Positions 12,720 to 34,613 of a stretch of 64,000 nt of DNA are shown here, piece by piece. The stretch lies in the sequence record PZ476263.1; one strand, written 5' to 3'. Below the pieces are notes generated by a model that worked only from the letters and a program-made list of their open reading frames with translations, searched no databases and was not told the DNA's origin. This DNA is from a phage. Every line of letters begins with the position of its first letter. Within the stretch, counting starts at the first letter, position 1. The position numbers were made by a program, and so were the translations under genes.

Positions 12720-13877
12720 TTAGAATGGAATTTCATCATCGAAATCCATCATTCCGTCTGCAACCGACATATCGATGTGACCATCTGAAATCGTAGATTG
12801 AGGAGCATCTTCTTCACTAGGCTTCAGATCCTGCTGTTTTACAGGATCCTCTACCTTGCCACCATTTCGAATCTTATCTTCCAGAGAATTAATGAATCGG
12901 AATGTTTCTTCTGTTTTCTGAATAAATGCATCAATACTTTCATTTCCCCAACGAGCAGAAAGAATACCGGACTGACCTAAACGTGCACCAAATGCATAAT
13001 CATCTAAAGATTTAAATTCATCACGTAGCTTGGCTTTAACAGAATCCATAGCTTGAAGGATCTGTTCTACGATAACACCTTTTTCCAAAACTGATTGTTC
13101 AGGGAACATAGCTTCAGAAATTGAAAGGGCATTTCCGAGGCGAATAGGTAGATCATCTTTCTTACTGCCGCCGGACTTATTGCCTGTTGAGCCGCCTGAA
13201 TTTTTAGGACCATACGCTTTAAAGTTAGTTACTTTACCTTCACCATCCCGCAGACCTGCAATTCGACCATCTTTAGCAATTTGAGCCAACTGATCATTAG
13301 AAAGAACGACAAAAACTTCTTCACCACTTTCCACTTTCACAACCACACGATTCCCATCTACCGATGTAATATCACCATAGATTTTAGTTGCCGTTGCAGA
13401 AGACGTTTGCTGGCCTTGCTGTGCTGACTGTTGGCGAGCCTCTCGTGCACCGGAAGCGTCCGTAACCTTAATCTTAGATTTCTTACCTTCAATTGATTCA
13501 CCTTGCTCACCATTAGCACGAGTAAAGACTTTCTTTGAAACAGGTAGACGAATCTTCATACCCTCTTTCAGATCAACGTAGCCACCTTCAGGATTCTTAA
13601 TCTGGAACTGATTTTCATACTTCAGATTCTTAACTTCACCTTCACCAAAAGAAATCCAAGCCTGATCTTCACCTTCTTTCAACAGAACAGAATATCGATG
13701 AGTATTGTTAATGCTCTTTTGTTGGCCTGTGCTCTTATCCTTGAATGTCGTAACTCGTGGACTGCCGTCTTCATTAATACGTTTGATAACGATTCGCTCA
13801 ATAGTACCCGCAGCGATAGAAACAGTAACATCGTTAACAGCATCGTATACAGAATTAATAACTTTAACTTCAGACAT
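12720..13877 (-). CDS. putative ssDNA-binding protein with SSB-type acidic C-terminal tail
   Basis: 385 aa; C-terminus ...MDFDDEIPF matches bacterial SSB tail (DFDDDIPF); Gly/Ser/Gln-rich linker; body not recognisably a canonical OB fold. Confidence 0.55.
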   Translation of the reverse strand: MSEVKVINSVYDAVNDVTVSIAAGTIERIVIKRINEDGSPRVTTFKDKSTGQQKSINNTHRYSVLLKEGEDQAWISFGEGEVKNLKYENQFQIKNPEGGYVDLKEGMKIRLPVSKKVFTRANGEQGESIEGKKSKIKVTDASGAREARQQSAQQGQQTSSATATKIYGDITSVDGNRVVVKVESGEEVFVVLSNDQLAQIAKDGRIAGLRDGEGKVTNFKAYGPKNSGGSTGNKSGGSKKDDLPIRLGNALSISEAMFPEQSVLEKGVIVEQILQAMDSVKAKLRDEFKSLDDYAFGARLGQSGILSARWGNESIDAFIQKTEETFRFINSLEDKIRNGGKVEDPVKQQDLKPSEEDAPQSTISDGHIDMSVADGMMDFDDEIPF

Positions 13878-13955
13878 TCAAACTCTCCTTTATTGATTAC
13901 CCTTTCGGGAACAGAAACTATATTACTACTTCAAAACTTCAATTGCAACTACTTT

Positions 13956-14342
13956 TTACAAATAAACACGTTTAGTTTTAGAATCCACACCCTCAAAAAG
14001 TTCATTGATAATGTTTAAATCTTTGATAAAGCGAACAGTAAAGTCCTCATCTTTCAATGCTCGTAAACGGTCACGTTTTACAATCTTAGGTTCACCGTCA
14101 TCATAATTCAAAACATCAGTTAGATCAAAGAGAGTGATCGTAATTTTTGCGTAAGTTTCCTTATCTATTTTTTGGTTCTTGTCAATCCCATAGACTGACG
14201 CAATTTCAAGTTCGTCTGTATCTTTACTGTATACAATGTTGGTATTCATTGCATACTCTACATCAGTCCATTTTGTGATATTACGAGTTGCAGATTTAAT
14301 TTTCCAACTATCGTCTAATTCGTATTTATCAAAAACGCTCAT
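13956..14342 (-). CDS. hypothetical protein
   Basis: 128-aa ORF in - strand block. Confidence 0.5.
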   Translation of the reverse strand: MSVFDKYELDDSWKIKSATRNITKWTDVEYAMNTNIVYSKDTDELEIASVYGIDKNQKIDKETYAKITITLFDLTDVLNYDDGEPKIVKRDRLRALKDEDFTVRFIKDLNIINELFEGVDSKTKRVYL

Positions 14343-14398
14343 CTTTATCTCCTTCGTTTAGGTTGAGGTAATCATCTTACCCCAACCTTTATTACCTG

Positions 14399-14842
14399 TC
14401 AATACTCTGCGCGAGGTTTAACTACACCAGCTTTAGAAATTGGAAGCTCATCTGCATCTTTACCACGAAGACTATTGATCCATTCCCGTTCTGTCATGAC
14501 ATATTCGTGGTTGTCCTCTTTTGCTAGGCGAACATAAATTTCATAAGCTGACTCTCCGACGGGTCCCATATTACCTCGATCACCTTGTGGACCAGATAAA
14601 ATCTTTTCTACCTGTGCTTTTTCAACGACAGGTTTTGATTTGTATAGCGACCAAATCAGCAGGCCAGTCCAAATAGCCAGACCCGCAAAAGGGTAAATCG
14701 ACAATACAAGTCCCAACAAAGAAAGGATTAAAATAATGTGTTTGTTAAGATGGTCCCGCTTATAAGCGATAACTACAGGAACAAACCAGATCGCCAATAC
14801 AATTAAAGACAGAAAAAGAAAAATTACTATTGCAACATCCAT
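14399..14842 (-). CDS. membrane protein with collagen-like G-X-Y stretch
   Basis: 147 aa; three predicted TM helices then GPQGDRGNMGPVGES (five G-X-Y triplets). Confidence 0.5.
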   Translation of the reverse strand: MDVAIVIFLFLSLIVLAIWFVPVVIAYKRDHLNKHIILILSLLGLVLSIYPFAGLAIWTGLLIWSLYKSKPVVEKAQVEKILSGPQGDRGNMGPVGESAYEIYVRLAKEDNHEYVMTEREWINSLRGKDADELPISKAGVVKPRAEY

Positions 14843-14857
14843 AATGACCTCCTCAGA

Positions 14858-15061
14858 TTAATCGCTTAAAGTAACAGTATCGAAAAACACATCCCGCATC
14901 CACTCTTCAGCGGGACGAATGTAATAACCAGTTTTACCTAGAGATTGGTAATATTTTAAAATCTCTTTGGCAATATCTTTAGTCAAACCTGCCGCTACAA
15001 TACAGCCACCAGGTCCAGAGACTACATGTGTTTTGTATTTATCATTTTTGTTTTTGCTCAT
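14858..15061 (-). CDS. hypothetical protein
   Basis: 67-aa ORF. Confidence 0.4.
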   Translation of the reverse strand: MSKNKNDKYKTHVVSGPGGCIVAAGLTKDIAKEILKYYQSLGKTGYYIRPAEEWMRDVFFDTVTLSD

Positions 15062-15350
15062 TATTCTCTCCCTCTAATTTTTGTTTAAGTTTTTCTGCAT
15101 CCCAACTGTATGAGCTTGGAAGCCCCATTTTAACGTCACTATCTGTAAATGTACATAAAACACCTTTTGCGTCCTGACCCCGTTTAATTATAGAACTATT
15201 ATTATAGTTCGGTTGACTTTTACAAAATTTGTGCAGACTAATAATTTCACTTGGGGTTAAGGATGGTAATTTAGAATAAGAATCTGGTTTTTCATCTTTT
15301 AAATCACAACCTGCAAGAAGAAAAATAAAAGCAACGATTAATTTTTTCAA
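15042..15350 (-). CDS. putative lipoprotein
   Basis: 102 aa; signal peptide with lipobox MKKLIVAFIFLLAGC. Confidence 0.55.
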   Translation of the reverse strand: MKKLIVAFIFLLAGCDLKDEKPDSYSKLPSLTPSEIISLHKFCKSQPNYNNSSIIKRGQDAKGVLCTFTDSDVKMGLPSSYSWDAEKLKQKLEGENNEQKQK

Positions 15351-15497
15351 TTCACGATCCTCCCCAATACTTAAACAATTCTACACATGCGATTGTTGAC
15401 AGTATGAACCATATGGCACTTACAACATTTACATACAGGAATCTACAACCTGCCATAGAAACCATTATAAAGAGGCAGACAAAAGTTTTATAATCAA

Positions 15498-15902
15498 TCA
15501 TTTCTTACTCTCCTTTTTTGATTTTTCGTCTGCATCTACCTGATCTTCCGCCAGACTAATTATCTGATAAACTGTTTCAGGGTTTTGAAGAAACTCTGTA
15601 TATTTCTTGATCCGAACTACGAGTTTTGAACGAACTTTTCTTTCTCTTTCTACTTGCTTGAAGTAATGACCCTTCTGAGTATAAGTCCACGCATAGTAAA
15701 CTGTTTTTGCACGATGGCGGGTTGATTTTAATTTCTCCGCCAGCTCCGTATACGGGTCATTATCTGTGGGACCAAAAAGAAAAATTTGTGCAAAATTCTC
15801 TTTCATAATTTGAGATTCTTCAGGTGTCAGTCGTGGACACTCTTCGGAACCGTACTTAGGACCTTTTACCATTGGTTTTTTAGGATAAACTTTACTATTC
15901 AT
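15498..15902 (-). CDS. hypothetical protein
   Basis: 134-aa basic ORF. Confidence 0.5.
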   Translation of the reverse strand: MNSKVYPKKPMVKGPKYGSEECPRLTPEESQIMKENFAQIFLFGPTDNDPYTELAEKLKSTRHRAKTVYYAWTYTQKGHYFKQVERERKVRSKLVVRIKKYTEFLQNPETVYQIISLAEDQVDADEKSKKESKK

Positions 15903-15977
15903 ATTAATACCTCACTCCCGTTATGTTACTTTTACTCCGATGTAAGAGGGGTATTATAACCCCTCTCGATTTATTTA

Positions 15978-16607
15978 TCAATCACAACTTGAAGAACTTG
16001 AACCGCTATCATAAGAGCTACTGTCATAAGAGCTGGATGAACTCTCATAAGATGATGAAGAAGAACTTGAAGAACAAGATCGACTAGGTTCATCGCTCGC
16101 CATAACAGCGGCATACGTTCCAATACCTCCTAAAACACCTGCTGTTAATGGTACGTCATTGTTGCTGTTGACTTGAGTTGTTCCAGATCGAGATGTCGAA
16201 TTATGGGCCTCTTTAATAAATTTACGTTTAGCCTTTGGCGGCAGTTTCTTACCTTGTGCATAAACAGGAAGGTCAACTTCTTTCAATTTCTCATCTAAAG
16301 GTTTAGCCTTTTTAGGTGGAACTTTTTCAAGCTTAGAAACTTTAACAGTTTTCTTGTCGATGTTAACTCCAACGACGACTTCATTTTCTTCCAGATCGGT
16401 TTCAAATTTTTGAATCTTCGGCTTAGTGAAACGAACACTTTCAGACTTAACATTTAAACCAACAGCTTCAACATATTCTTTTACCTTTTGGGGAGCCTGA
16501 ACATTGTTCACATACTTCCGAGAATTAATATACTCATCAACTTTTGAAGTTTCGATCTTGACAGGTACAAAAATAGATTTCACCCAAGAAAATAATTTTT
16601 TAAACAT
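15978..16607 (-). CDS. hypothetical protein with Ser-rich low-complexity C-terminus
   Basis: 209 aa; Lys-rich body; C-terminal SSSSSSSSYESSSSSYDSSSYDSGSSSSSCD. Confidence 0.5.
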   Translation of the reverse strand: MFKKLFSWVKSIFVPVKIETSKVDEYINSRKYVNNVQAPQKVKEYVEAVGLNVKSESVRFTKPKIQKFETDLEENEVVVGVNIDKKTVKVSKLEKVPPKKAKPLDEKLKEVDLPVYAQGKKLPPKAKRKFIKEAHNSTSRSGTTQVNSNNDVPLTAGVLGGIGTYAAVMASDEPSRSCSSSSSSSSYESSSSSYDSSSYDSGSSSSSCD

Positions 16608-16674
16608 AACTTCCTCCTTTCAATTTTTAATTCGAGGCTATTGTAATTCAATAGCCTTTGCTTGTCAATAAAAT

Positions 16675-17614: not shown

Positions 17615-17615
17615 G

Positions 17616-22752: not shown

Positions 22753-23651
22753 TTAGTGACAATCTCCCCAGCTGTATCCACACAAGTATTCCCCTGTGAT
22801 ATGCACTGGTGATTTCATCATCTTAGCTGCTTGTTCGACACAACGAACAACCATCTCTCCTACAGGGCAGTATGTAATAGTGAAGATACCATTTTCATCT
22901 GGATCACACTTAAACTTACCTTCCTTGACACAATGGCCTTCGAGGACCATCTTCTTAGCAAGACATGCCTCAACAAAAGCTTTTGCATCAGCTTCGTTAT
23001 CAAACTTCCATACCTTTTTGAACTTCTCCGGCACTTCAAGCTGGTACTCGTCATGGTAATAAATTGTACGACGTACACCTTGATCATACCAACCTTTTTT
23101 AACCAGCTGCCAATGCAACAGGATACCTACCAAGTCAAACATGGCAGCACCACCGTTCTGTTGGAAAGCGTTAAGCAATGAGTGTTTGGATCGGGTATAG
23201 ATCTTACGACCATCAAGACCATAAATGAATCGTTTACCGTTGGCTTCCCAAAACTTCTCAAGTGCTTCTTTACGACCTTTCAAACCTAAGTTGCTATCCC
23301 AAAATGCATCGATTACTGCTTGTGCTTTCTCCAATGAAATTCCAAGCATGGATGCAATCTTAGCTGCTTGAGCACCGTACATAATTCCATAGGTGATCCC
23401 CTTTCCTTCCCCACGAGATACTTTCTTACCCGCTGCCTTGGTATATGCTTCTGCGTTTCGACTATGAGCATCACCACTTTCCATAATTCGGAGGTAAGCA
23501 CCACCATCGAATTCATAACTTCCCCATGCAGCGACCATACCCTCTAAGTTAGAACCGTCTATACCTACCTGATACTTACCCTCGGGTACAGTGAAAAGGT
23601 CACGCATTTCTTTACCTAGAAGAACCTTAGGATCAGGCTTCGGCACGTTAG
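22753..23651 (-). CDS. DNA polymerase, family A (T7 gp5-like), 3' exon: palm/fingers from motif A to C-terminus
   Basis: GIDGSNLEGMV (motif A region), KGITYGIMYGA, GLDGRKIYTRSKHSLLNAFQQNGGA, YHDEYQLEV (motif C), C-terminus ...SWGDCH; parallels the T7 DNA polymerase C-terminal half as recalled; 5' boundary approximate. Confidence 0.85.
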
Positions 23652-24875
23652 CACAATATGTTCGTTAAAGGTCGCAACTCTTTAACCGGGATCGTATACA
23701 CCTGAAGAAATATCTCTTCACACTTTCGAGTACGATTCCTGTTTCTTTTGCTACGTCACAGAAATCTTTCCCATCAAGTATCATTTTTGTTATCTCTAGT
23801 TCCAACTCTTCTTTAGTTTTGTTTCTTAACTTACTGACCCCAAAAGTTTTATCTTCGGCAAATTTACCGATAAAAAATCTAACTGTCGGTTTCTCTAAGT
23901 TTAGGATCTCACAAATCTTTAAAAGAGTCGCACCTTTCCACCATAAAGATCTTGCTTCTTCTGCAAGATGTTTCTTTTCTTCCACTTCAGAAACACATTT
24001 CCCCATGTCGAAAGTTTTTAAGTATCTTGCTGCAAAGTGCCTTTCTTGTCCAAGGTCCAGAGAGATTTTTGCATACGAATCACCTGCCAGATATCTTTTA
24101 TGGATGTGCAGATACATCTCTCCATAGTTATCAAAGCCGGATTGTTTTGCTCTATTATCTCTTTTTGCCATTGAACTTCTTTCAGATGCGATAGTTTTTA
24201 TGGACTCACCAAAAGAGTTTCCAATTGCATCTGGACTAGGACTCACCGCTGAAAAAGTATTATTAGTCATGTTATAGAATTCTGTATTGTTGGCTGCATC
24301 ATTCTCTAAAAGAACTTTTTCTTCGATTTCACGAAGGAGATCTCTTTTGTCTACAACTTCCAACACCTCAGCTACAAATCTATGACCACTTTTTAAATCC
24401 TTTTTCATATCTGGATTGGAAGAGGACCCAAGATAAGGTTTTCCACTCTTAATCGAGATTATTGTGGGGATTCCATCCACATCTATCACTTTGCATTCAC
24501 TTTTACTTCCGATATATTTGTTCGGGTATTCTTCTTTATCGATGTTTTTCAAGAGATAAACAATGTTCATGTATACGTCCTCCGCTGTATCTTTCAACAC
24601 AGTTCAGACTATATCTTTGACACACTAAAGGATAGCTGAACCAATCTACCCCTAATGTATCACAAACCACTTCGATTGTCTACGCTTACAATCTACGCCT
24701 TCCGGCTAGTCGTTGAACCTTCTACCTGTCTGGTAGCTTGGCTGCTGATTGCCCAATCCTTTAACTTTTTAAACCTTCGCTTTGTATTCCTACTCGCAGT
24801 GGTATAAAGGCTCTAAGGGGTTCCCAGCAATTCAATTTGTTTTATACTGAGGCAGCTTTAGTTTACCACAGTGTG
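23652..24875 (-). mobile_element. group I intron interrupting the DNA polymerase gene, carrying a GIY-YIG homing endonuclease ORF
   Basis: All four conserved core elements on - strand RNA: P AAUUGCUGGGAAC (rc of 24820-24832), Q AAUCAGCAGCC (rc of 24740-24750), R GUUCAACGACUAGCC (rc of 24704-24718), S AAGAUAUAGUCUGAAC (rc of 24602-24617); polymerase reading frame resumes after the inserted ORF; exact splice sites not resolved. Confidence 0.75.
23665..24600 (-). CDS. GIY-YIG family homing endonuclease (intron-encoded)
   Basis: 311 aa; N-terminal MNIVYLLKNI...NKYIGSKSE matches the GIY...YIG module; Lys-rich C-terminal half; RBS GGAGGA; located inside the intron downstream of core element S. Confidence 0.75.
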   Translation of the reverse strand: MLKDTAEDVYMNIVYLLKNIDKEEYPNKYIGSKSECKVIDVDGIPTIISIKSGKPYLGSSSNPDMKKDLKSGHRFVAEVLEVVDKRDLLREIEEKVLLENDAANNTEFYNMTNNTFSAVSPSPDAIGNSFGESIKTIASERSSMAKRDNRAKQSGFDNYGEMYLHIHKRYLAGDSYAKISLDLGQERHFAARYLKTFDMGKCVSEVEEKKHLAEEARSLWWKGATLLKICEILNLEKPTVRFFIGKFAEDKTFGVSKLRNKTKEELELEITKMILDGKDFCDVAKETGIVLESVKRYFFRCIRSRLKSCDL

Positions 24876-26594
24876 TTTACGACGGCCTGTATTCGTTATT
24901 CCAGTATAACGTGCAGGTAATTTACCGTCCACCGCAAGTCGAGGATGGTTTAACCAACCTGTATCTACTTTATCCTCTTTCAAAGGATCAAGAACACTTC
25001 GACGGTTACGAAGAGATAGCCATTTTACAATCTGCTTTGCCATATCACCATCGACTCGCTCAAGGTTAGGACAAAGGCCCTGCTGATCCTTAAGCTGCGG
25101 TGATGTTGGTAATGCTCTTGCCTTCTTCCTGAAGAACTTATACATCTTCTCTTTATCTTGCCACTGCTTACCACTGATACCTAAACTTTTCAGAATCAGA
25201 TCGCGATATTCAGTCTGGTCAAGATCATCAATGTATTGACGAACAATGATATCGACTTCGTTATCGGGACGTTGTTTCTTAAACTGGTCCTTCGTCGCAT
25301 CTTTGGTTCGCCACAATGTTGGGACCCAACCCGCATCACGAATAAGGAATTTTTTAACGTCATCCTGATTACCAATACGCATCGGAATCATAATATCCGG
25401 CATCTTTTGATCTTTGATATCCATCAATGCACGGGCCATGTCTTCCGGTGGCAAAGGTACAAGATTTTCCTTTTTCACATTTTGAGAACGAATAAATTCA
25501 GCCATTTTGGATTCATCTTCTACACCATGCTCTACACAATACTTAATTGCAGCAGATGTGAGTGAACCATCGCCCTTAAACGGCTTACTTGGAGCGCCTT
25601 TAAATTCAAGAGCTTCCCAATTCACATTGTAACCTAACTTCTCTAACCATTTCCAGCCCGTACCAGAAAGAGATCCATCTCCTTTAAACGGCTTAGACGG
25701 GAAAGTAGGCTGTGCTGACTTGGACATCTCTTTCTTCGGCAGCTTTGGTTCAACCTCTTCTTCAATTTCTTTCATCATCGTATCAATACGATCACGCAAA
25801 GCTAAACCTTTCTCCACGTCGAAAGTAACACCCTGAATTTCTTGCTCAACCATCAAATAGTCGGTAAGCATACCTCGACGCAAGGCATTCTTCCAATTGA
25901 TGAGCTTCATCTTCTTCGGATCTTTGTCCGATTCATCTTTGTACATGAAACGTTTATCATCCGGCATAGAGTCACATGAAATTTCTTTCATGAGGGCATC
26001 CCATACCATTTCGTTGATGATTACGTCTTCAATAATACGATCACAATATTTCCACAAAGGGAGTCCACGCCAATCTTCGATTGCTACCTTCTGGTTTGCT
26101 ACTCGCATACCCCAAGCTTCAAGTCCATGAGGGCCTACAGGCTTCATTTTACCTGTAACTGGGTTCTTTACCATCTCGGGACAACCGCGCGGCAGAGGGC
26201 GATCTGGATACAGTGTACGGGACATTGAAAGGGTATCGAAGATGTTAACTTGTTTACCATTGATAGTCCCCATGCAACCAGGGTCTGCAAACATATCGTA
26301 TGTTGTTCCAAACATCTTTTTAAACAGCTGTAAGTCATAGCCGAAGATATTATGGATAGCAACAGCTTTTGGTTCAGTCACAAACCACTCATTAAGTTCT
26401 TCCAACTTACGGATCTTAAAGTTCTTACCTTTGGATTGAATAAACTTAACCGCTTGCTCGTAGCCTTCGCGGTTCGGATCGATAAAAATATTCCAATTGT
26501 CCTTTTTGTACTCTTTAAAAAGAACACAGTGAACAAGATCAACTTCTGTCAACAGGCCGTTAGCCTCTGCATCTCCAATAAACAAACCTTTCAT
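24858..26594 (-). CDS. DNA polymerase, family A (T7 gp5-like), 5' exon: 3'-5' exonuclease domain plus N-terminal part of polymerase domain
   Basis: FIGDAEANGL (Exo I), GPHGLEAWGMRV and GWVPT match T7 gp5 landmarks as recalled; ends ...TGRRKHTVVN just before the conserved PNL(Q)xIP region; last codons and stop probably intron-encoded. Confidence 0.85.
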   Translation of the reverse strand: MKGLFIGDAEANGLLTEVDLVHCVLFKEYKKDNWNIFIDPNREGYEQAVKFIQSKGKNFKIRKLEELNEWFVTEPKAVAIHNIFGYDLQLFKKMFGTTYDMFADPGCMGTINGKQVNIFDTLSMSRTLYPDRPLPRGCPEMVKNPVTGKMKPVGPHGLEAWGMRVANQKVAIEDWRGLPLWKYCDRIIEDVIINEMVWDALMKEISCDSMPDDKRFMYKDESDKDPKKMKLINWKNALRRGMLTDYLMVEQEIQGVTFDVEKGLALRDRIDTMMKEIEEEVEPKLPKKEMSKSAQPTFPSKPFKGDGSLSGTGWKWLEKLGYNVNWEALEFKGAPSKPFKGDGSLTSAAIKYCVEHGVEDESKMAEFIRSQNVKKENLVPLPPEDMARALMDIKDQKMPDIMIPMRIGNQDDVKKFLIRDAGWVPTLWRTKDATKDQFKKQRPDNEVDIIVRQYIDDLDQTEYRDLILKSLGISGKQWQDKEKMYKFFRKKARALPTSPQLKDQQGLCPNLERVDGDMAKQIVKWLSLRNRRSVLDPLKEDKVDTGWLNHPRLAVDGKLPARYTGITNTGRRKHTVVN

Positions 26595-26912: not shown

Positions 26913-27352
26913 CGTTCAATCTCCTTCTTTTTGGACATAGTGATGAAATAGTTCTGACCTTTCTTGCACTGGTTAAACCAGCCAACAAGATATCCATCTT
27001 CGATACGAATATCATACTCAGGGTATTCGCCCGTTCCACTGATTATATGGAAAAGTTTACCGAAGTCAATAAAGGTCAGATTATACTGAAAGTTTTCCTC
27101 GTCCTGGAAGATTGCAACAGCAGAGCTTCGGCCCTTTGACGTAGTAATAAACTTAAGTTTAAGTTCACGATGCTCATGATCGACAATGTTAACTTTTCTC
27201 TCAAGCAAGTAATTTGGGTCAACACGGGGCCAATGAGCTTTAAATCTTTCAGCGCCTTCTTCAGTAAAGGCATCACCATCGTAACCAGTAAACCATTTAC
27301 CATTATCTTTTACGTAGCCATGATAACTACGCTTACCTTTTACTTTAATCAT
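26909..27352 (-). CDS. hypothetical protein
   Basis: 147-aa ORF. Confidence 0.5.
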   Translation of the reverse strand: MIKVKGKRSYHGYVKDNGKWFTGYDGDAFTEEGAERFKAHWPRVDPNYLLERKVNIVDHEHRELKLKFITTSKGRSSAVAIFQDEENFQYNLTFIDFGKLFHIISGTGEYPEYDIRIEDGYLVGWFNQCKKGQNYFITMSKKKEIER

Positions 27353-27552
27353 TCCGTTATCTCCTCTTGTTCTGGATCTTCGATCATTGAGCTTTTAACT
27401 CTTGACCCGTATGTGGTCATTTCACCCGACCTACTCGAACCCTCAGGTGCTCTTATGACAGCATGACCTCTTAATAGTGTTCCTTCGTAGGTTTGTCCAA
27501 CTACAAAACCCATTTGGGAAACACCATTATCTCTATAACAAAGTAAATTCAT
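27349..27552 (-). CDS. small paralogue array member 11 (divergent)
   Basis: 67 aa; GQTYEG...IEDPEQEE; shares family scaffold. Confidence 0.55.
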   Translation of the reverse strand: MNLLCYRDNGVSQMGFVVGQTYEGTLLRGHAVIRAPEGSSRSGEMTTYGSRVKSSMIEDPEQEEITE

Positions 27553-27763
27553 CGTTCTCTATTTTAATTTCCTCTGTGATTTTATTTTCGGGATCAAGAA
27601 TAAGGCATGACTTTTTACACGGCACGGAATAAAACAACCCCCGCTCGTTTGGACAGATAATTAAAATATTTCGACCTCCCATATCTTTACCCTCGTAAGA
27701 CTCTCCTACCATTACCCCTTTGTCCCTCAGGAAACTATCCTCTTTTATGTAGATATACCTCAT
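27533..27763 (-). CDS. small paralogue array member 10
   Basis: 76 aa; MRYIYIKED...VGESYEG...ILDPE. Confidence 0.6.
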   Translation of the reverse strand: MRYIYIKEDSFLRDKGVMVGESYEGKDMGGRNILIICPNERGLFYSVPCKKSCLILDPENKITEEIKIENDEFTLL

Positions 27764-27960
27764 AGGCTGTTTTCCTCAGGGTCAAGAATAAAATGTTTAT
27801 CTTCGCAAAATCCCCAGTTATTTTCTCGTCCTAATGGATAGATACAGAGAATATTTTTCTTTATACTTGCATATTTCCCTTCATAAGTACAGCCTATTTC
27901 TACATGTTTCCAAGTAGGAACACTTAAGCATATGTATTTTTTAAATGTTTCTTCATTCAT
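27760..27960 (-). CDS. small paralogue array member 9
   Basis: About 66 aa from internal Met (track ORF to 27984); KKYICLS...IGCTYEG...LCIYPLG...ILDPEE. Confidence 0.6.
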   Translation of the reverse strand: MNEETFKKYICLSVPTWKHVEIGCTYEGKYASIKKNILCIYPLGRENNWGFCEDKHFILDPEENSL

Positions 27961-28156
27961 TTTGGTCCTCCCCCTCAGGGTCAATAACGAAGTGTATAGA
28001 ATTTAAATATCTTATCCCACCATCCAACCCTGTCGGGTAGATACAAAGATAGTGAAGCATTACGCTATCTTCACATCCATAATAAGTCGATCCTAAAGAA
28101 ACTTGACTGCTTGCTTTATCTGATAAGCAGATGTACTTTTTTAAATCCTGTTTCAT
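27953..28156 (-). CDS. small paralogue array member 8
   Basis: 67 aa; KKYICLSD...GSTYYG...LCIYPTG...VIDPEGE. Confidence 0.6.
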   Translation of the reverse strand: MKQDLKKYICLSDKASSQVSLGSTYYGCEDSVMLHYLCIYPTGLDGGIRYLNSIHFVIDPEGEDQNE

Positions 28157-28359
28157 TCATTAACCTCCTCAGGGTCGAGAATGAAATCATTAAAATCGCA
28201 AATTATCCAATCAGCAGACCAAGGGTGATGACCATCAGGGAAAATATATAGAACACCAGGTATCATTCCCCCTATAAAACCTGTATATGTCTCGCCTATT
28301 TTGACAAGATCCTCGTTACTTTTTATACAGAGGAACTTTTTAGTGTTTTTATCTCTCAT
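28153..28359 (-). CDS. small paralogue array member 7
   Basis: 68 aa; KKFLCIKS...IGETYTG...LYIFPDG...ILDPEE. Confidence 0.6.
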   Translation of the reverse strand: MRDKNTKKFLCIKSNEDLVKIGETYTGFIGGMIPGVLYIFPDGHHPWSADWIICDFNDFILDPEEVNE

Positions 28360-28565
28360 TTTTTAATATCCTCTGGTTCCTTTGCAAAACTCTTAGTGCC
28401 TATATATACCCATCCACTACCTATTCCATGAGGATATATACAAAGTGCATCCGACATTGTACTGTCGAATCCTGAATAAGTCTCCCCCAAATTAAGATTT
28501 GAGCATCCTTTGGTGCTTATGCATATGTAATTTTGAATATACATTTCAGGTTTTTGTTTCATTTT
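28356..28565 (-). CDS. small paralogue array member 6
   Basis: About 69 aa from internal Met (track ORF to 28622); NYICIS...LGETYSG...LCIYPHG. Confidence 0.55.
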   Translation of the reverse strand, partial: KMKQKPEMYIQNYICISTKGCSNLNLGETYSGFDSTMSDALCIYPHGIGSGWVYIGTKSFAKEPEDIKK

Positions 28566-28566
28566 A

Positions 28567-28764
28567 TTACTCCTCGTGCTCGGGGTCAAGAACGAAGTCC
28601 GCAGAATGATAGTACACACCATAAGTTTCTATCCCTTTCGGAAAAATATGAAGATAGTTGCTCATTAAAATATCTTTACGACCATAATAGGTCAATCCTT
28701 GAGAGATTGCTGTACCTGCCTCATCAGATATGCAAAGATACTTTTTAAATCCTATTTCACTCAT
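28567..28764 (-). CDS. small paralogue array member 5
   Basis: 65 aa; KKYLCISD...GLTYYG...LHIFPKG...VLDPEHEE. Confidence 0.6.
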   Translation of the reverse strand: MSEIGFKKYLCISDEAGTAISQGLTYYGRKDILMSNYLHIFPKGIETYGVYYHSADFVLDPEHEE

Positions 28765-28953
28765 TTAATCTCCTTCCGGATCAGCCGCTAAGCAAGATCC
28801 CTTACAAGGTGCTGACCTGAGCCAACCCTCATCGTTTAAATAGTAAATGATAATAACAGCATCTCCTATACCCTCAGTGCCTTCGTAAGATTCTCCTATT
28901 ATCAACGGGTAGTCTTCCAAAAGGCGATCTTCTTTTATGTAGATATATTTCAT
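28765..28953 (-). CDS. small paralogue array member 4
   Basis: 62 aa; MKYIYIKED...IGESYEG...AADPEGD. Confidence 0.6.
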   Translation of the reverse strand: MKYIYIKEDRLLEDYPLIIGESYEGTEGIGDAVIIIYYLNDEGWLRSAPCKGSCLAADPEGD

Positions 28954-29145
28954 TTATTCATCGCCTTCGGGATCTTCGACAAAATTATCTAACTTTACAG
29001 GCATAGATAAATTATCAGTCACCTTCACTGTGATGTAAATACTTTGAAAAGATTTAAATTTATTCTCTTCCCGATAAGTCTCGCCAACTACCAAGAGTTT
29101 AGAGTCCTTATTTTGTATGCATAGATAATTTGTCATTGTTTTCAC
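28954..29145 (-). CDS. small paralogue array member 3
   Basis: 63 aa; NYLCIQN...VGETYRE...VEDPEGDE. Confidence 0.6.
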   Translation of the reverse strand: MKTMTNYLCIQNKDSKLLVVGETYREENKFKSFQSIYITVKVTDNLSMPVKLDNFVEDPEGDE

Positions 29146-29345
29146 CTGTATTCAGGGTCTTCCGTGAAACTCTCCTTATTGAAAAATAGAGTAGTATCTT
29201 CATTTGGGAACGTTATAGGTATGTACTTACCCCGAGGAATACTATCGTTTATAAAGTAAGTCATACCTAATTGAAGTTTAGTGCTGTGTATGTTACTTAT
29301 ACATATAACCCCGACAAATCTTTCACCCTTCCTCTCCTTCTTCAT
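29142..29345 (-). CDS. small paralogue array member 2
   Basis: 67 aa; VGVICISN...LGMTYF...TEDPEYR. Confidence 0.55.
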   Translation of the reverse strand: MKKERKGERFVGVICISNIHSTKLQLGMTYFINDSIPRGKYIPITFPNEDTTLFFNKESFTEDPEYR

Positions 29346-29532
29346 ATATTTCAGGATCCTCTACAAAATCAGATTTCTTAAGCCATAGTTCCAAAGTATC
29401 ACTTACCCTTACGGATATCTGCCCACCAAATATTTTAGATGGTCTTACATAGTAAGTTTCTCCGATTACAAGTTTGTAAGTAGACCTATTGCTAACGCAG
29501 AGAAACTTAACATATTTTTGCTGTATACTCAT
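29323..29532 (-). CDS. small paralogue array member 1
   Basis: 69 aa; KFLCVSN...IGETYY...VEDPEIYEE. Confidence 0.55.
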   Translation of the reverse strand: MSIQQKYVKFLCVSNRSTYKLVIGETYYVRPSKIFGGQISVRVSDTLELWLKKSDFVEDPEIYEEGEEG

Positions 29533-29849: not shown

Positions 29850-29863
29850 TTTACCCCCAATAA

Positions 29864-30544: not shown

Positions 30545-30545
30545 A

Positions 30546-31240: not shown

Positions 31241-31407
31241 ATTTTGGCTTCATATGCAATTGGTGTTACATAGCGCCAAGTCTTTTTGTAATGGTCGAGG
31301 AGTTCTCTCATATTCTCCTCGTCCTTTGCCCAACCACAAACGTGAGGTATTTCATCAACAGACATTTGACACTTAATATACCAACGCGTTTCTGTGTTTT
31401 TATTCAT
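31198..31407 (-). CDS. hypothetical protein
   Basis: Likely starts at internal Met (MNKNTETRWY); track ORF extends to 31479. Confidence 0.4.
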   Translation of the reverse strand: MNKNTETRWYIKCQMSVDEIPHVCGWAKDEENMRELLDHYKKTWRYVTPIAYEAKICDVKPEKKERKKK

Positions 31408-31640
31408 GATTTTTTCACCAGTTCGTAAATCTCGAAGTCGGATTTCTTTACACACGCTCGCCAACCTGAAGATAAGCAACGAGCAACAACAAAGTCGTCT
31501 GGTAAAGAGGGTGTATTGTTTTCAACCATCAACACATCGCCTTTGAAAACATTAATTTCTATGCTTGTATTATCCCAACATACGTAAGAATAATTATCAT
31601 TTTTGGCAACTAAGAACATTTTAATATTTTTAATTGTCAT
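31404..31640 (-). CDS. hypothetical protein
   Basis: 78-aa ORF. Confidence 0.45.
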   Translation of the reverse strand: MTIKNIKMFLVAKNDNYSYVCWDNTSIEINVFKGDVLMVENNTPSLPDDFVVARCLSSGWRACVKKSDFEIYELVKKS

Positions 31641-31921
31641 TTTACCAACCCCAATTCATATGCCGAGTATAAATCATTTCCTTCGTACCCGTCAACAATA
31701 ATTTTCACATTTTTATCGCGACGCTCATCAACAACCATTCGAGATCCTGCGCCGGATTTAACAAGGTAGGTGTCCTTATTAACCCTTACCGTTTGTGTTC
31801 TTCTTGCAGAAACAATCTCAACCTGTGTATTTTTAGGAACAAATTTAACAATCTCCACCATAGTACCTTCGGTCCCCATTTCCATAAGGTCATACTTAAT
31901 AGCTTTCATTAATGTAGTCAT
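31637..31921 (-). CDS. hypothetical protein
   Basis: 94-aa ORF. Confidence 0.5.
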   Translation of the reverse strand: MTTLMKAIKYDLMEMGTEGTMVEIVKFVPKNTQVEIVSARRTQTVRVNKDTYLVKSGAGSRMVVDERRDKNVKIIVDGYEGNDLYSAYELGLVK

Positions 31922-32091
31922 TGTGCATTCTCCTCTGAAGGGCCTTCTTTAGCCTTTGCAATTGCGTTAATAGTGATTATATAGCTATCTTGTAAGTTTT
32001 CAAGCTCTTTCTTAGTGTCAAAAGGATACCATCCATCTTTAGACATCTTGGCTATGGTTTCGTAATCATCAAATTTCACATCTGAAGGCAT
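31921..32091 (-). CDS. hypothetical small protein (not in ORF track, <60 aa)
   Basis: 57-aa ORF read from reverse complement; TAATG and ATGA overlaps couple it to both neighbours. Confidence 0.4.
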
Positions 32092-32468
32092 TAGCATAAT
32101 TTTACCTCTTTGTTCAGAAAGTCTTTGGCAATAAGACGGATAATTTCTTCTGCGTTTTCAGAATTTACCACACCATAGTTCTTGAAAGGTAAAATGGTGT
32201 CTTCACAAACTTCTTCGAAGAATTTAAATTCGTCATCACATATTTCAAAATATTCGTCACCATTCTCCAGGCAAGTTAACTTTTTTCCATTTATACACAA
32301 AGCCTCTTCAATAAAATAAACCTCATTGAAAAGTCCAATTTTCGTAGGACAAAACACACCACCATTAGAATTAAGTAAATTTACCATTGGGGTGTTGGAA
32401 CGAGGATTATCCTCGACAAACTCAGAGACACGAGATTCTTTTAATTTGTACCATTTACCTAATTCCAT
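32091..32468 (-). CDS. hypothetical protein
   Basis: 125-aa ORF. Confidence 0.5.
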   Translation of the reverse strand: MELGKWYKLKESRVSEFVEDNPRSNTPMVNLLNSNGGVFCPTKIGLFNEVYFIEEALCINGKKLTCLENGDEYFEICDDEFKFFEEVCEDTILPFKNYGVVNSENAEEIIRLIAKDFLNKEVKLC

Positions 32469-32533
32469 CTTCTTTTCCTCTTTTATTGTGTTGATGAGAT
32501 AAGTATAAGGATATTTTAGGTGGCTGTCAATAG

Positions 32534-32562
32534 AAAAACCACCCCGAAGGGTGGTTTATTTT
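32534..32562. terminator. bidirectional rho-independent terminator downstream of primase-helicase
   Basis: CCACCC-cgaa-GGGTGG hairpin flanked by A-run and T-run. Confidence 0.7.
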
Positions 32563-32570
32563 GAAAAATA

Positions 32571-34613
32571 TCAGAAAGGTGCTTCCTCGTCGAAATCCAC
32601 ATCTTCAACTTCCGGTACGTCTGGAATGTTTGCTGCCGCTTCGACAATATCTTGTTGCTCCCAAATCTCTTCCATAGGTTGTCCAAGTTCTTCCATTACT
32701 TCCTTCATCTCTTGCTTCTGAGCTTCAAGGAAGTTTTCATCCGGATCTGGAATGTCCTCTTCTGTGATATCCGAACGGGTAAGGTCCGAATTACTTTCCG
32801 ACAGAGGCTGGATTTCAGCTGCCTTTGGCTTAAAGTCTGGAGAACGATGATCATCTTCTGGATGTGCTGCATACCATTCCCGAAGAGTCTCATATGGACT
32901 GTCCAAAAAGCCTTCTGGCGGCTCAAGGTAATCACCCGTGTCAATGTCATAGAACACAGGGAATTTACCAGCACGACCGTGTTTACGGTCATCCAGAATA
33001 ACAAACCATGAAGTATTTCGTTGCTTCATAGGTAGTTCTGGATCTTTGTTACGCTCAATACCCCACATGTAATACGTGTTACGCATCATTGCACGACTAC
33101 CAGCAAACTGAGCTGATTGAACTTGACCACCAAACTCGTGTGGCTTACCTGCATCTGGCTTATTGAGGTGGCAGAAGCAATAATAAGTAAAACCAAGTTC
33201 TTTAGCCAGCTTGGAGATCTCATCAGAGAACCGCTCAAGTTCCTGGTTAGCCTCTGACGCACTCATACCCTGAACAAGTCGAGTGATCGGGTCAATAAAG
33301 ATATCTTCACACCCTTCTACGATTACAGCATGGCGGATAGCACCTTTCAGTTCATCCCATACTGCACGACCATAGTTGTTATAGTAAATTACACTATCAC
33401 CAACTTCATCTGTCGCCTTGATCAGCTCTTCCTGCTTAAAGTATCCACGTTGACCTTCAAAAACTTCATTGCCCCAAATGTCACGGTAAGTCCCGTCAGG
33501 TTGCGGAAGCATTACTTTTTCTGCGTTAACGAAGTCTTTATGATATCGCTTACCTGCAATCTTCTTACAGGTGATTTCGTTCTCTTCTTCAAACTTAAAT
33601 ACCGCTGCTTTTGCTTTCTCTACGCCAGTGATATGTTCAACCAGCTGGTTAAGCAATTCACTCTTACCCATTTTTACACCCGCACCAATGAAGTAACCTT
33701 CACCGAGGCGACGGCCCAAAGTAAGTTTTGTCAGTGTAGGCCAAGGGAATTTTTTACCCAGCTTAGGGATTTCATGAGCCTTTTCACGGAATTGTGAATA
33801 AGTTGAAAAACCGTCCGGTACATATTCCTTTGGTTTCATTGCTGCCCAAAACAACTGATCAGCAAGACCTTTGTTATACATGTCACAAGGGTCCATATCT
33901 TCAGGGATATCGACCACCTTCATTTGAGGAATAACAGAGTAAACTGCGGCAACCGCATCTTTACCCTTCATAATTCCTTTTGCTTTTTCTGCTTCAGTTG
34001 CCCGATCCGCATCGAAAGCTACAATAATCTCATCAAACTTACTTAACAGCTTATAGTTGTTCTTTTGTGACAAGTTCTGAACAGCGTTAGAAGTTCCGTT
34101 AGAGATGGAAACAACTGTGAAGTTCGGTTTACGTGTCGCACCATCTTTGGGTTTATACTTTTCACGAAGAACTTGCCAAAGAACGGCAGCATCGTATTCA
34201 CCCTCAGTGATAAAGATCATTCGTTTGGAGGATTTATTAGCACCTTCAAGACCAAACAGATCACAAGCTACCGATTGAAAACCGATAGTTGTAAAATGAC
34301 CTTTCTGCTGTTTTGGGATTGTAAGATCACGCTTCTTAAAACCTACAATCTTCCCATCCAAAGTATACGGAAAGTAATGTGCTTCTGCCGAAAGACCGTC
34401 TTTTGCGGAAAGCTTAGTACGAATACCAAAACGCTCTGCTGTCTTTTCATCGATACCACGCTCAGGGATTGCTTTGAACGGATAAGTCATTACATCTGCA
34501 ACTGTTTCTTCTACTCGCGAAGAACTGCTACCAAAACTACGTTGAACACTGGCCTTTGGATTCTTATGCCCAAATTTGTAACCGCCAAACAAACTTTCTC
34601 CGATGGTACTCAT
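32571..34613 (-). CDS. DNA primase-helicase (T7 gp4-like)
   Basis: 680 aa; TOPRIM-like motifs IFITEGEYDAAV and IIVAFDAD; Walker A GAGVKMGKSEL; acidic C-terminus ending ...DVDFDEEAPF; no N-terminal Cys zinc ribbon visible. Confidence 0.85.
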   Translation of the reverse strand: MSTIGESLFGGYKFGHKNPKASVQRSFGSSSSRVEETVADVMTYPFKAIPERGIDEKTAERFGIRTKLSAKDGLSAEAHYFPYTLDGKIVGFKKRDLTIPKQQKGHFTTIGFQSVACDLFGLEGANKSSKRMIFITEGEYDAAVLWQVLREKYKPKDGATRKPNFTVVSISNGTSNAVQNLSQKNNYKLLSKFDEIIVAFDADRATEAEKAKGIMKGKDAVAAVYSVIPQMKVVDIPEDMDPCDMYNKGLADQLFWAAMKPKEYVPDGFSTYSQFREKAHEIPKLGKKFPWPTLTKLTLGRRLGEGYFIGAGVKMGKSELLNQLVEHITGVEKAKAAVFKFEEENEITCKKIAGKRYHKDFVNAEKVMLPQPDGTYRDIWGNEVFEGQRGYFKQEELIKATDEVGDSVIYYNNYGRAVWDELKGAIRHAVIVEGCEDIFIDPITRLVQGMSASEANQELERFSDEISKLAKELGFTYYCFCHLNKPDAGKPHEFGGQVQSAQFAGSRAMMRNTYYMWGIERNKDPELPMKQRNTSWFVILDDRKHGRAGKFPVFYDIDTGDYLEPPEGFLDSPYETLREWYAAHPEDDHRSPDFKPKAAEIQPLSESNSDLTRSDITEEDIPDPDENFLEAQKQEMKEVMEELGQPMEEIWEQQDIVEAAANIPDVPEVEDVDFDEEAPF

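What the first reader, a model, noticed from the sequence alone, without database searches (positions are those of the whole stretch)
12720..34613. Two replication proteins end in an SSB-like acidic C-terminal tail (DFD(D/E)E(I/A)PF)
The 385-aa protein at 12720..13877 ends ...MDFDDEIPF and the primase-helicase at 32571..34613 ends ...DVDFDEEAPF. Both resemble the bacterial SSB C-terminal tip (DFDDDIPF), which recruits replication and repair partners. In T7 the gp2.5 SSB and gp4 helicase both use acidic tails ending in Phe to contact the polymerase. A shared tail here suggests a common docking site, or that the phage proteins use host SSB-interaction pockets.
Basis: partly seen in the sequence, partly recalled or inferred. 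Interest (0 to 1): 0.5.

Follow-up and report, generated by a model that had tools for sequence, protein, structure and literature searches.

The report
SSB-like tails on two replisome proteins
In this rV5-like phage, the single-strand DNA-binding protein and the T7-type primase-helicase both end in a conserved acidic "…PF" peptide almost identical to the tip of the host SSB; this is a real docking motif, but it follows the known T7 pattern, and its presence on the SSB-like protein has already been reported in a 2026 preprint.

Summary
The 385-aa protein ends MDFDDEIPF* and the 680-aa primase-helicase ends DVDFDEEAPF*. The motif occurs nowhere else in six frames.

The 385-aa protein has two OB-like barrels, a helical domain and a disordered acidic tail. 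It belongs to phrog_4477 and is 26% identical to Bas52_0087. A 2026 preprint describes Bas52_0087 as SSB-like with an E. coli-like FDDDIPF tip.

All 90 family members searched carry D[FW]D[DE]D[IV]PF. About 80% of 141 more distant representatives also end in an acidic PF.

The 680-aa protein is a T7 gp4 homologue. Of 45 full-length relatives, 33 end in acidic …PF, and 89% of shorter relatives end in Phe. The polymerase is closest to T7 gp5.

The best reading is therefore the T7 scheme: acidic C-terminal tails dock SSB and helicase onto the polymerase. The SSB tip is held identical to the host SSB tip, which suggests it also engages host SSB partners. No partner was shown here.

Side finding: in many other phages the same …IPF tip is followed by a conserved, undescribed 14–16-aa extension, APIGLQY…. 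It occurs on canonical SSBs, on this SSB-like family and on primase-helicases.

The parts
12720..13877 (-). Gene for the 385-aa SSB-like protein (phrog_4477; the Bas52_0087 family)
   Evidence: ORF and translation. phrog_4477 E 8.8e-76 and no Pfam hit. 26% identity over the full length to bas52_0087, E 7e-21. 90 homologues found.
13461..13862 (-). Residues 6-139: N-terminal beta-barrel (OB-like) domain
13215..13391 (-). Residues 163-221: second small beta-barrel, following a Q/S-rich linker (residues 148-160)
   Evidence: AF2 secondary structure and pLDDT. Conserved block KxYGEI...GGRLAG...FKAYGP.
12870..13154 (-). Residues 242-336: helical domain. By my reading of the alignment, it starts at the invariant Asp that probably corresponds to the Bas52 escape site D252.
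   Evidence: AF2 helices 242-336, pLDDT about 90. Invariant D240. The escape mutants D252V and Y351C lie at a predicted oligomerisation interface in the preprint.
12723..12869 (-). Residues 337-385: disordered acidic linker (net charge -9) ending in the tip
   Evidence: pLDDT 45-57. Charge. The region is poorly alignable apart from the last 8 residues.
12723..12746 (-). Codons for the tip DFDDEIPF, followed by the stop at 12720-12722
   Evidence: Family statistics at each position: D-8 100%, F-7 92%, D-6 98%, D/E-5 90%, D-4 97%, I-3 91%, P-2 100%, F-1 100% (n=90).
12679..12702 (.). Bidirectional intrinsic-terminator hairpin between the convergent genes 11442..12674 (+) and 12720..13877 (-)
32571..34613 (-). 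Gene for the 680-aa T7 gp4-type primase-helicase (no zinc-binding domain)
   Evidence: Pfam DnaB_C 29.8 bits (cut-off 27); weak Toprim hit. phrog_239 E 1e-159. T7 gp4 in the PDB by sequence, E 3e-21, and by fold, E 4.7e-31. No Cys in the first 60 aa.
32574..32903 (-). Residues 571-680: C-terminal acidic region, net charge -28, lying beyond the part that aligns with T7 gp4
   Evidence: charge. (the alignment to gp4 ends at residue 528). (low-confidence helices 626-659; residues 653-680 disordered).
32574..32597 (-). Codons for the tip DFDEEAPF, followed by the stop at 32571-32573
   Evidence: Of 45 homologues of at least 600 aa, 33 end in PF with acidic residues at -5/-6, and 8 end in PF plus one residue.
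32536..32557 (-). Intrinsic-terminator hairpin after the primase-helicase gene, followed by a promoter-like site at 32502-32530
24858..26594 (-). DNA polymerase A, N-terminal 578-aa fragment (candidate docking partner; inferred)
   Evidence: phrog_17. 92% identical to W70_84 residues 1-577.
22753..23646 (-). DNA polymerase A, C-terminal 297-aa fragment. It contains GKRFIYGLDGRK, which aligns with the T7 gp5 front-basic-patch region.
   Evidence: Pfam DNA_pol_A. The best PDB match is T7 gp5, E 1.3e-14. The KR pair aligns with R590/R591, and the motif is conserved in W70 and K54_rec1.

Best explanation
The two tails are C-terminal short linear docking motifs: an acidic run ending in Pro-Phe-COOH. 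Each sits at the end of a disordered, strongly negative region. One is on the phage's own single-strand DNA-binding protein, which has two OB-like barrels, a helical domain and a tail. The other is on its T7 gp4-type primase-helicase. The replisome is homologous to that of T7 (gp4-like helicase-primase, gp5-like family A polymerase). The most likely mechanism is therefore the T7 one: both tails bind the same basic/hydrophobic surface(s) of the phage polymerase. That would keep the polymerase tethered to the helicase and let it take over ssDNA from the SSB. The SSB tail probably also folds back on its own OB cleft when the protein is off DNA. The SSB-like protein's tip is held essentially identical to the host SSB-Ct (DFDDDIPF) across the whole family, so it probably also fits the SSB-Ct pockets of host proteins. 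Shown here: the motifs, their position, their conservation, the disorder and charge of the regions carrying them, and the fold and homology assignments. Inferred: every binding partner.
For: The motif is present only at these two C-termini and is far beyond chance expectation. SSB-like family: all 90 members searched carry D[FW]D[DE]D[IV]PF, with near-zero entropy at 7 of the 8 tip positions, while the preceding linker is variable. Of 141 further representatives at 50% clustering, 98 end in acidic-x-[IVLAT]PF, and most of the rest end in PF, PF plus 1-2 residues, PW or DF. Primase-helicase family: 33 of 45 long homologues end in acidic PF, and 62 of 70 shorter ones end in Phe. Both tails are also present in the Vequintavirus JLBYU08, whose SSB-like protein is only about 25% identical (YVFDDDIPF and GFEDDETPF), and in W70. 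The tails sit in disordered regions with net charges of -9 and -28. The 385-aa protein has OB folds most like ssDNA binders. No canonical SSB is detectable in the window or in the complete genome of relative W70. The 680-aa protein is a gp4 homologue, and the polymerase is closest to T7 gp5. In T7, the acidic tails of gp2.5 and gp4, each ending in Phe, bind basic patches of gp5 (PMC12339929: front basic patch K587/K589/R590/R591; PDB 6P7E holds the gp4 tail peptide DTDF). The window polymerase has K-R aligned with R590/R591. The same 14-16-aa extension is appended to the PF tip of the SSB-like protein in some phages and of the primase-helicase in others. I read this as evolution treating the two tips as equivalent modules.
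Against: No interaction was tested, and no complex could be modelled. The T7 front basic patch is only half conserved: the loop carrying K587/K589 is absent and K594 is Tyr. The two tips are under very different constraint, which does not fit a single shared site being the only function. In one primase-helicase clade the tip is followed by one extra residue (…LPFD/E/Q), and in other phages by a 14-16-aa cap. A free Phe carboxylate, critical in T7 and in SSB-Ct pockets (from my own knowledge), is therefore not always present. The Aeromonas phage 2L372D primase-helicase has no PF tail, although its SSB-like protein has the tip.
Confidence: 0.55

Rival explanations
1. Host-SSB mimicry is the main function. 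The tips are copies of the host SSB-Ct. They would let phage ssDNA-bound SSB and the helicase recruit host SSB-interacting proteins (for example chi/Pol III, PriA, RecQ, RNase HI or Topo III), or titrate them (for example ExoI/SbcB), in competition with host SSB. This is compatible with the best explanation.
For: The SSB-like tip is identical or nearly identical to the 8-9-residue E. coli tip across a family whose members share as little as about 25-30% identity. Some members share 11 residues (PPMDFDDDIPF) with the C-terminus of the E. coli SSB sequence I supplied from memory. This constraint is much tighter than the T7 polymerase-docking rule of acidic residues plus a terminal aromatic, which is what the primase-helicase shows. 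The primase-helicase keeps Pro-Phe, the core of SSB-Ct, rather than the T7-type D-F. The preprint on Bas52_0087 links this protein genetically to a defence system (DRT10) that is modulated by the SSB-Ct-binding exonuclease SbcB, and proposes competition with SbcB.
Against: No binding data exist; the preprint's link to SbcB is explicitly speculative. Its escape mutations lie in the helical domain and not in the tip. The phage encodes its own polymerase, primase-helicase and other helicases, so a need for host replisome factors is not evident. Bacterial SSB tips are equally invariant for reasons that may include binding to their own OB fold (PMC3936761), so invariance alone does not prove host partners.
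Confidence: 0.3
2. The tails act only in cis. They would be DNA-mimicking autoinhibitory tails that occupy the DNA-binding surface of their own protein (the OB cleft, or the helicase/primase surface) and tune DNA affinity or oligomerisation, with no shared external partner.
For: [quoted passage not shown] Both tails sit on long flexible acidic linkers.
Against: An acidic run would suffice for DNA mimicry. The strict Pro-Phe terminus shared by two unrelated folds points to a pocket that reads a terminal aromatic residue. In T7 and E. coli the cis interaction coexists with trans partners.
Confidence: 0.1
3. The resemblance is incidental. It would be a compositional accident, or a non-functional relic of recombination with a host or prophage ssb gene.
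For: Distant family members carry linker-plus-tip strings such as PPMDFDDDIPF, which also ends the E. coli SSB sequence supplied from memory. An ancient acquisition of the tip from an ssb gene is therefore conceivable.
Against: The expected number of chance matches is about 2e-6. The tip is invariant while the adjacent linker drifts, and it is conserved to the limit of detectable homology. The DNA encoding the two tips shares only about 10 nt and then diverges, so there has been no recent gene conversion.
Confidence: 0.02

Closest known systems
Bacteriophage T7 replisome: acidic C-terminal tails of gp2.5 (SSB) and gp4 (primase-helicase), both ending in Phe, which bind basic patches of gp5 polymerase/thioredoxin
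   Same: The replisome type is the same. The window's primase-helicase is a gp4 homologue, and its family A polymerase is closest to gp5. The SSB and the helicase both carry a disordered acidic tail with a C-terminal Phe. A terminal Phe is almost universal in the gp4-like family.
Bacterial SSB C-terminal tip (SSB-Ct, DFDDDIPF) on an intrinsically disordered linker, the hub for SSB-interacting proteins
   Same: The architecture is the same: an OB core, a disordered linker and an acidic tip. The 385-aa protein's tip matches 8 of 9 residues, and most family members are identical to the E. coli tip.
   Different: There is no PF00436 domain and no significant sequence similarity outside the tip. 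The domain organisation differs. Here the motif also occurs on a helicase-primase, which is not a known carrier of SSB-Ct.
Bas52_0087 of Escherichia phage RudolfGeigy (Vequintavirus), described in bioRxiv 10.64898/2026.04.29.721553 as an SSB-like trigger of the DRT10 defence system
   Same: It belongs to the same protein family (26% identity over the full length, E 7e-21; locus tag and accession checked). The predicted architecture is the same (two OB folds and a disordered C-terminus). The tip is the same, and the preprint points out FDDDIPF as E. coli SSB-like.
   Different: The window protein is a divergent member from a W70/UPEC06-like lineage (66% identical to the closest phage records). 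The preprint does not mention the primase-helicase tail ('primase' occurs 0 times) or the T7-type polymerase-docking interpretation.
Twinkle / gp4B-type primase-helicases without a zinc-binding domain
   Same: TOPRIM plus DnaB-like helicase in one chain, with no N-terminal zinc ribbon.
   Different: Twinkle is a much weaker structural match than T7 gp4 (E about 1e-18 against 5e-31). I know of no PF-type acidic tip described for Twinkle (from my own knowledge).

Membership tests
Bacterial-type SSB (Pfam PF00436) | OB domain recognisable by the PF00436 profile or by sequence similarity to bacterial SSB | tested here: not met
   No Pfam hit at E<=0.01. No PDB sequence hit. tblastn with E. coli SSB finds only the 9-aa tip (E 0.34) and a non-significant 56-aa stretch (E 2).
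Bacterial-type SSB (Pfam PF00436) | Disordered linker ending in the acidic tip D-D-D-I-P-F at the extreme C-terminus | tested here: met
   Ends …MDFDDEIPF*. Residues 337-385 have low pLDDT and charge -9. The family consensus is DFDDDIPF.
Bacterial-type SSB (Pfam PF00436) | Binds ssDNA as a homo-oligomer (usually a tetramer of four OB folds) | not testable with these tools
   Only fold similarity to ssDNA-binding OB domains is available.
T7 gp2.5-type phage SSB | Sequence or fold homology to gp2.5 | tested here: not met
T7 gp2.5-type phage SSB | Acidic C-terminal tail with an essential terminal Phe | tested here: met
   The sequence feature is present and invariant. Essentiality was not tested.
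phrog_4477 / Bas52_0087-type SSB-like protein of Vequintavirinae and relatives | Full-length homology; two OB-like barrels, a helical domain and a disordered tail with an (F)DDDIPF tip | tested here: met
   phrog_4477 E 8.8e-76 across the full profile. E 7e-21 against bas52_0087. AF2 architecture. Tip.
T7 gp4-type bifunctional primase-helicase | TOPRIM primase domain fused to a DnaB/RecA-type helicase domain, homologous to gp4 | tested here: met
   PDB 5ikn/6n7i/1q57 by sequence, E 3e-21 over residues 46-528. Foldseek top 13 hits are all T7 gp4, E down to 4.7e-31. DnaB_C is above the Pfam cut-off; Toprim is below it.
T7 gp4-type bifunctional primase-helicase | N-terminal Cys4 zinc-binding domain for primase site recognition | tested here: not met
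   No Cys in the first 60 residues. The alignment to gp4 starts at gp4 residue 78.
T7 gp4-type bifunctional primase-helicase | Acidic C-terminal tail ending in Phe that binds the polymerase | tested here: inconclusive
   The tail is present and conserved. Binding to the polymerase was not testable. The basic-patch alignment is only partial.
SSB-Ct short linear motif (as a motif class, on the primase-helicase) | Acidic residues followed by hydrophobic-Pro-Phe with a free C-terminal carboxylate, at the end of a disordered region | tested here: met
   DVDFDEEAPF*. Residues 653-680 have pLDDT below 50. Position -3 is Ala/Pro/Cys rather than Ile in the family. Recognition by SSB-Ct pockets was not tested.

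The most novel reading that the evidence does not exclude
The …D-D-x-P-F tip would be a portable phage module that plugs any replisome protein (SSB, SSB-like protein or primase-helicase) into pockets evolved to read the host SSB-Ct. Phages would further control it with a previously undescribed 14-16-aa cap (APIGLQY-x-x-[LI]-L-x-C-M, or APIGLQY-xxHAIYVL) fused directly after the terminal Phe. The cap removes the free carboxylate, so it would mask the tip from host SSB partners or from defence sensors triggered by phage SSBs, or it would add a second binding site. In Vequintavirinae-like genomes the cap sits on either the SSB-like protein or the primase-helicase. This implies that the two tips are functionally interchangeable.
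Probability: 0.2. Interest if true: 0.7.

Novelty: new member of a known kind. Interest (0 to 1): 0.38.

Why it matters
The result indicates that the T7 rule, in which SSB and helicase hold the polymerase by acidic tails ending in Phe, extends to the large rV5-like myophages. These phages are widely used in therapy and as models for defence systems. It also identifies the unannotated phrog_4477 protein as their SSB. The near-identity of the SSB tip with the host tip gives a concrete, testable handle on how these phages interact with host DNA-repair proteins. It also bears on defence systems that sense phage SSBs, such as DRT10 with SbcB. In itself it is an expected feature and only a modest surprise. 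The capped variants found elsewhere are the part that could lead to something new.

Tried and rejected
1. I first read 12 SSB-like homologues as having an alternative tail (…GLQYPNHAIYVL). The alignment showed that they keep DFDDDIPF and add 15-16 residues, so I dropped the planned test of co-variation between alternative tails.

2. I considered that the extension is read-through into a mobile HNH cassette or an intron. In L007/L008 an HNH ORF does start inside it. I rejected this as the general explanation for three reasons. APIGLQY is kept through synonymous third-position changes. In L006 it is separated from the next gene by a terminator. In L005 no HNH gene follows it.

3. Pfam and PDB sequence searches with the 385-aa protein returned nothing useful.

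4. A possible third tail-bearing protein, W70_220 (…DEDIPF), has only one homologous cluster, so its conservation cannot be judged.

5. Alignment to the T7 gp5 front basic patch gave only partial conservation. It is not decisive.

6. A recent gene conversion between the two tails is rejected, because only about 10 nt are shared.

7. Literature searches for rV5 SSB tails, for DFDDDIPF with phage, and for APIGLQY found nothing specific. A broader SSB-Ct/phage search then found the Bas52_0087 preprint. The Hna defence paper contains nothing on tails.

Full report
**1. Observation**

The coordinates are right, but the plus-strand translations are full of stops. Both genes are on the minus strand. 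The 385-aa ORF 12720..13877 ends …ADGMMDFDDEIPF*, and the 680-aa ORF 32571..34613 ends …PEVEDVDFDEEAPF*.

The pattern [DE]F[DE][DE][DE]xPF occurs only twice in all six frames, both times directly before a stop. Only 4 of 1030 stop-to-stop ORFs end in PF. With the window's amino-acid frequencies, about 2e-6 such termini are expected among 77 long ORFs.

The E. coli SSB C-peptide is DFDDDIPF (PMC3936761). The 385-aa protein matches the 9-residue MDFDDDIPF at 8 positions. Each gene is followed by an intrinsic-terminator hairpin.

**2. What the phage and the proteins are**

The window is a Vequintavirinae-like (rV5-like) myophage. Its closest records are Escherichia phages W70 and UPEC06, at 66% protein identity for the 385-aa protein.

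*The 680-aa protein.*
- It has Pfam DnaB_C plus a weak Toprim hit and matches phrog_239, DNA primase/helicase.
- It matches T7 gp4 by sequence (E 3e-21 over residues 46-528).
- An AF2 model (pLDDT 84) matches T7 gp4 chains first (E 4.7e-31), then Twinkle, then DnaB.
- It lacks the N-terminal zinc ribbon; there is no Cys in the first 60 residues.
- Beyond the gp4-like core it has a roughly 110-residue region of net charge -28. The last 28 residues are predicted to be disordered.

*The polymerase.* It is a family A enzyme whose best solved relative is T7 gp5 (E 1.3e-14). Here it is split into 578-aa and 297-aa ORFs by a GIY-YIG-like gene.

*The 385-aa protein.*
- It has no Pfam or PDB sequence match but belongs to phrog_4477 (E 8.8e-76).
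- An AF2 model built on 90 homologues (pLDDT 78) shows a beta-barrel at residues 6-139, a second small barrel at 163-221, a helical domain at 242-336 and a disordered tail at 337-385.
- In BFVD, the matches beyond its own family are mostly phage SSBs.
- No canonical SSB is detectable in the window or in the complete W70 genome. This protein is therefore the only SSB candidate found in the window and in the complete genome of its relative W70.

**3. Conservation**

*SSB-like family* (90 sequences, down to about 28% identity).
- Tip positions: D-8 100%, F-7 92%, D-6 98%, D/E-5 90%, D-4 97%, I-3 91%, P-2 100%, F-1 100%.
- 47 of the 90 retrieved homologues end in exactly DFDDDIPF.
- Positions -9 to -12 are variable, and the linker before them is hardly alignable.
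- A profile search of 1.8 billion representatives found 196 family members. Many are shorter proteins that share only the helical domain and tail.
- Of 141 new sequences, 98 end in acidic-x-[IVLAT]PF. Most of the rest end in PF, PF plus 1-2 residues, PW or DF.

*Primase-helicase family*.
- Of 45 homologues of at least 600 aa, 33 end in PF preceded by acidic residues (consensus D[WF]DD[EDQ]xPF).
- Eight end in PF plus one residue.
- Among 70 shorter relatives, 62 end in Phe, as T7 gp4 does.

*Both tips in the same genome.* Both occur together in W70 and in the Vequintavirus JLBYU08, whose SSB-like protein is only about 25% identical (YVFDDDIPF and GFEDDETPF). The exception is Aeromonas phage 2L372D, whose primase-helicase has no PF end.

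Both tails are therefore selected features. They are under unequal constraint. The SSB tip is frozen in the host-like form, whereas the helicase tip keeps only the acidic run plus Pro-Phe.

**4. Mechanism**

In T7, the acidic tails of gp2.5 and gp4, each ending in Phe, bind basic patches of gp5. PMC12339929 describes the front basic patch K587/K589/R590/R591 and PDB 6P7E with the gp4 peptide DTDF. Its reference list covers the essential terminal Phe of gp2.5. From my own memory of Richardson-laboratory work, the tails can be exchanged between the two proteins.

The helicase-primase and polymerase here are homologues of the T7 proteins. The SSB has the same logic of an OB core plus an acidic, Phe-terminated tail. 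The most economical explanation is therefore the same coupling mechanism.

The only direct check I could make is weak. In the window polymerase, the segment aligned to gp5 587-594 reads GKRFIYGLDGRK. K-R sits opposite R590/R591, but the loop carrying K587/K589 is absent. The motif is conserved in W70 and K54_rec1.

The host-like invariance of the SSB tip goes beyond what T7-type docking needs. It suggests either engagement of host SSB-Ct pockets or the same cis interaction with the OB fold that is documented for E. coli SSB. I cannot separate these two possibilities.

**5. What is already known**

A bioRxiv preprint (10.64898/2026.04.29.721553, April 2026) isolated Bas52 escape mutants of the DRT10 defence system in Bas52_0087. 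It describes that protein as SSB-like, with two OB folds, a disordered C-terminus and an FDDDIPF motif resembling the E. coli SSB tip. It speculates about competition with SbcB/ExoI.

I confirmed that bas52_0087 (QXV84166.1, phage RudolfGeigy) is the Vequintavirus member of this family. It aligns with the window protein over its full length (26% identity, E 7e-21). The preprint does not mention the primase-helicase.

The SSB-like half of the finding is therefore already described for an orthologue. The primase-helicase half follows the T7 precedent, and I found no description of it for these phages.

**6. Side finding: a cap after the tip**

Twelve SSB-like homologues keep DFDDDIPF and continue with APIGLQYPNHAIYVL-type sequences. 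In K54_rec1 and other Klebsiella phages, the same extension follows the PF of the primase-helicase instead (…DDDTPF-APIGLQYAKHAIYVI). In Aeromonas phage 2L372D it follows the tip of the short SSB-like protein.

Third-position differences within APIGLQY show that selection acts on the peptide.

A DNA pattern for PF-APIGLQY hit 43 viral contigs. Every hit was in frame after an SSB-type tip and 14-16 residues before the stop. Of 37 complete carrier ORFs, 24 are canonical PF00436 SSBs and 3 are DnaB_C primase-helicases.

Among 185,579 species genomes there are only 9 hits. Seven are genuine, and most of those come from gammaproteobacterial contigs, including a 45-kb Vibrio plasmid. Neighbours of capped canonical SSBs are often RdgC, MT-A70 methylases, FtsK_gamma, ERF or YqaJ proteins.

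The string APIGLQY is absent from the searchable literature, and the window itself has no cap or cap remnant. The cap removes the free carboxylate of the terminal Phe, so it should change what the tip can bind. Its function is unknown.

**7. Verdict**

The feature is a new member of a known kind: T7-type acidic, Phe-terminated docking tails in the sequence form of the bacterial SSB-Ct. Half of it is already noted in a preprint. Interest is moderate to low for the window itself. The capped tips deserve separate follow-up.

Noticed in passing
L006:25917-25966 (primase-helicase of Klebsiella phage K54_rec1); L005:39141-39185 (Aeromonas phage 2L372D gp072); L007/L008; L010-L052; L054-L058, L060, L061; proteins P0007, P0008, P0013, P0015, P0020, P0054, P0065, P0070, P0082, P0086-88: A conserved 14-16-aa extension (APIGLQY-[PRK]x[LI]L[NLM]C[MI], or APIGLQY-xxHAIYVL) is fused directly after the …DDDIPF tip. 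It occurs on canonical phage SSBs (24 of 37 carriers are PF00436), on this SSB-like family and on primase-helicases. The peptide is under selection, shown by synonymous changes. It is rare in bacterial chromosomes (7 genuine hits among 185,579 species genomes) and absent from the searchable literature. It is not present in the window.
   Followed up: partly
window 34434-34613 (-), first 60 codons of the primase-helicase: The gp4-like primase-helicase has no zinc-binding domain: there is no Cys in the first 60 residues, and the alignment to T7 gp4 begins at gp4 residue 78. How primase sites are recognised, and whether a separate primase exists, is open.
   Followed up: partly
window 22753-26594 (-): The family A DNA polymerase is split into 578-aa and 297-aa ORFs by a 311-aa gene (23665..24600) with a weak, sub-threshold similarity to GIY-YIG/SegE-type and homing endonucleases. 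The split falls at W70_84 residue 577/580. W70 and JLBYU08 are split at a different site (about residue 777), which is continuous in the window.
   Followed up: partly
L002:2451-5625 (W70 record 51450-54624): In W70 the primase-helicase gene is interrupted by an HNH homing-endonuclease gene (W70_67). The acidic PF tail (…DVDFDDEAPF) therefore sits on a separate 222-aa ORF (W70_68) annotated as hypothetical. The database fragments P0112, P0113, P0115, P0121 and P0134 (about 503-527 aa) look like the same kind of interruption.
   Followed up: partly
L002:45163-45684 (-), W70_220, outside the region covered by the window: A 173-aa ORFan (phrog_12009) ends …FIVDEDIPF and may be a third carrier of the tip. 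Only one homologous cluster exists (94% identical, with the same ending), so conservation cannot be judged.
   Followed up: partly
window 4238-4879 (+) and 60-428 (+): A baseplate protein (phrog_4056) ends …VSDEEDPWSF, conserved as …DDEDPWGF in W70. A neighbouring 122-aa structural-module ORF ends …QEEDVETIF. These are acidic, aromatic-terminated ends in the structural module and are probably unrelated to replication.
   Followed up: no
window 27349-29532 (-): A run of small ORFs (about 62-76 aa). Five of them have very acidic C-termini of similar form (…DPEGEDQNE, …EDPEGDE, …LDPEHEE, …EDPEQEEITE, …YEEGEEG), which suggests a tandem paralogous family of small early proteins.
   Followed up: no
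proteins P0188-P0192, P0197, P0201 and P0184 (primase-helicase homologues): A clade of primase-helicases ends in …[DE]LPF plus one extra residue (D, E, Q or N), so the Phe is not the terminal residue. Seven members of the wider SSB-like family likewise end in …IPFN, …IPFS or …PFA.
   Followed up: no
L007:1588-2060, L008:1212-1658, L009:5126-5563: An HNH endonuclease gene lies immediately downstream of the SSB-like gene in three metagenomic relatives. In the capped variants its start codon lies inside the cap-coding segment, in another frame. In the uncapped relative, the 5' part of this HNH region is replaced by unrelated sequence.
   Followed up: partly
window 32091-32468 (-) and 13956-14342 (-): The gene just downstream of the primase-helicase is an FRD2-family protein (Pfam PF03197). 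The gene just upstream of the SSB-like gene is a DUF7325 protein. In JLBYU08, the gene in the same position next to the SSB-like gene is annotated as a second 'putative single-stranded DNA-binding protein'.
   Followed up: no
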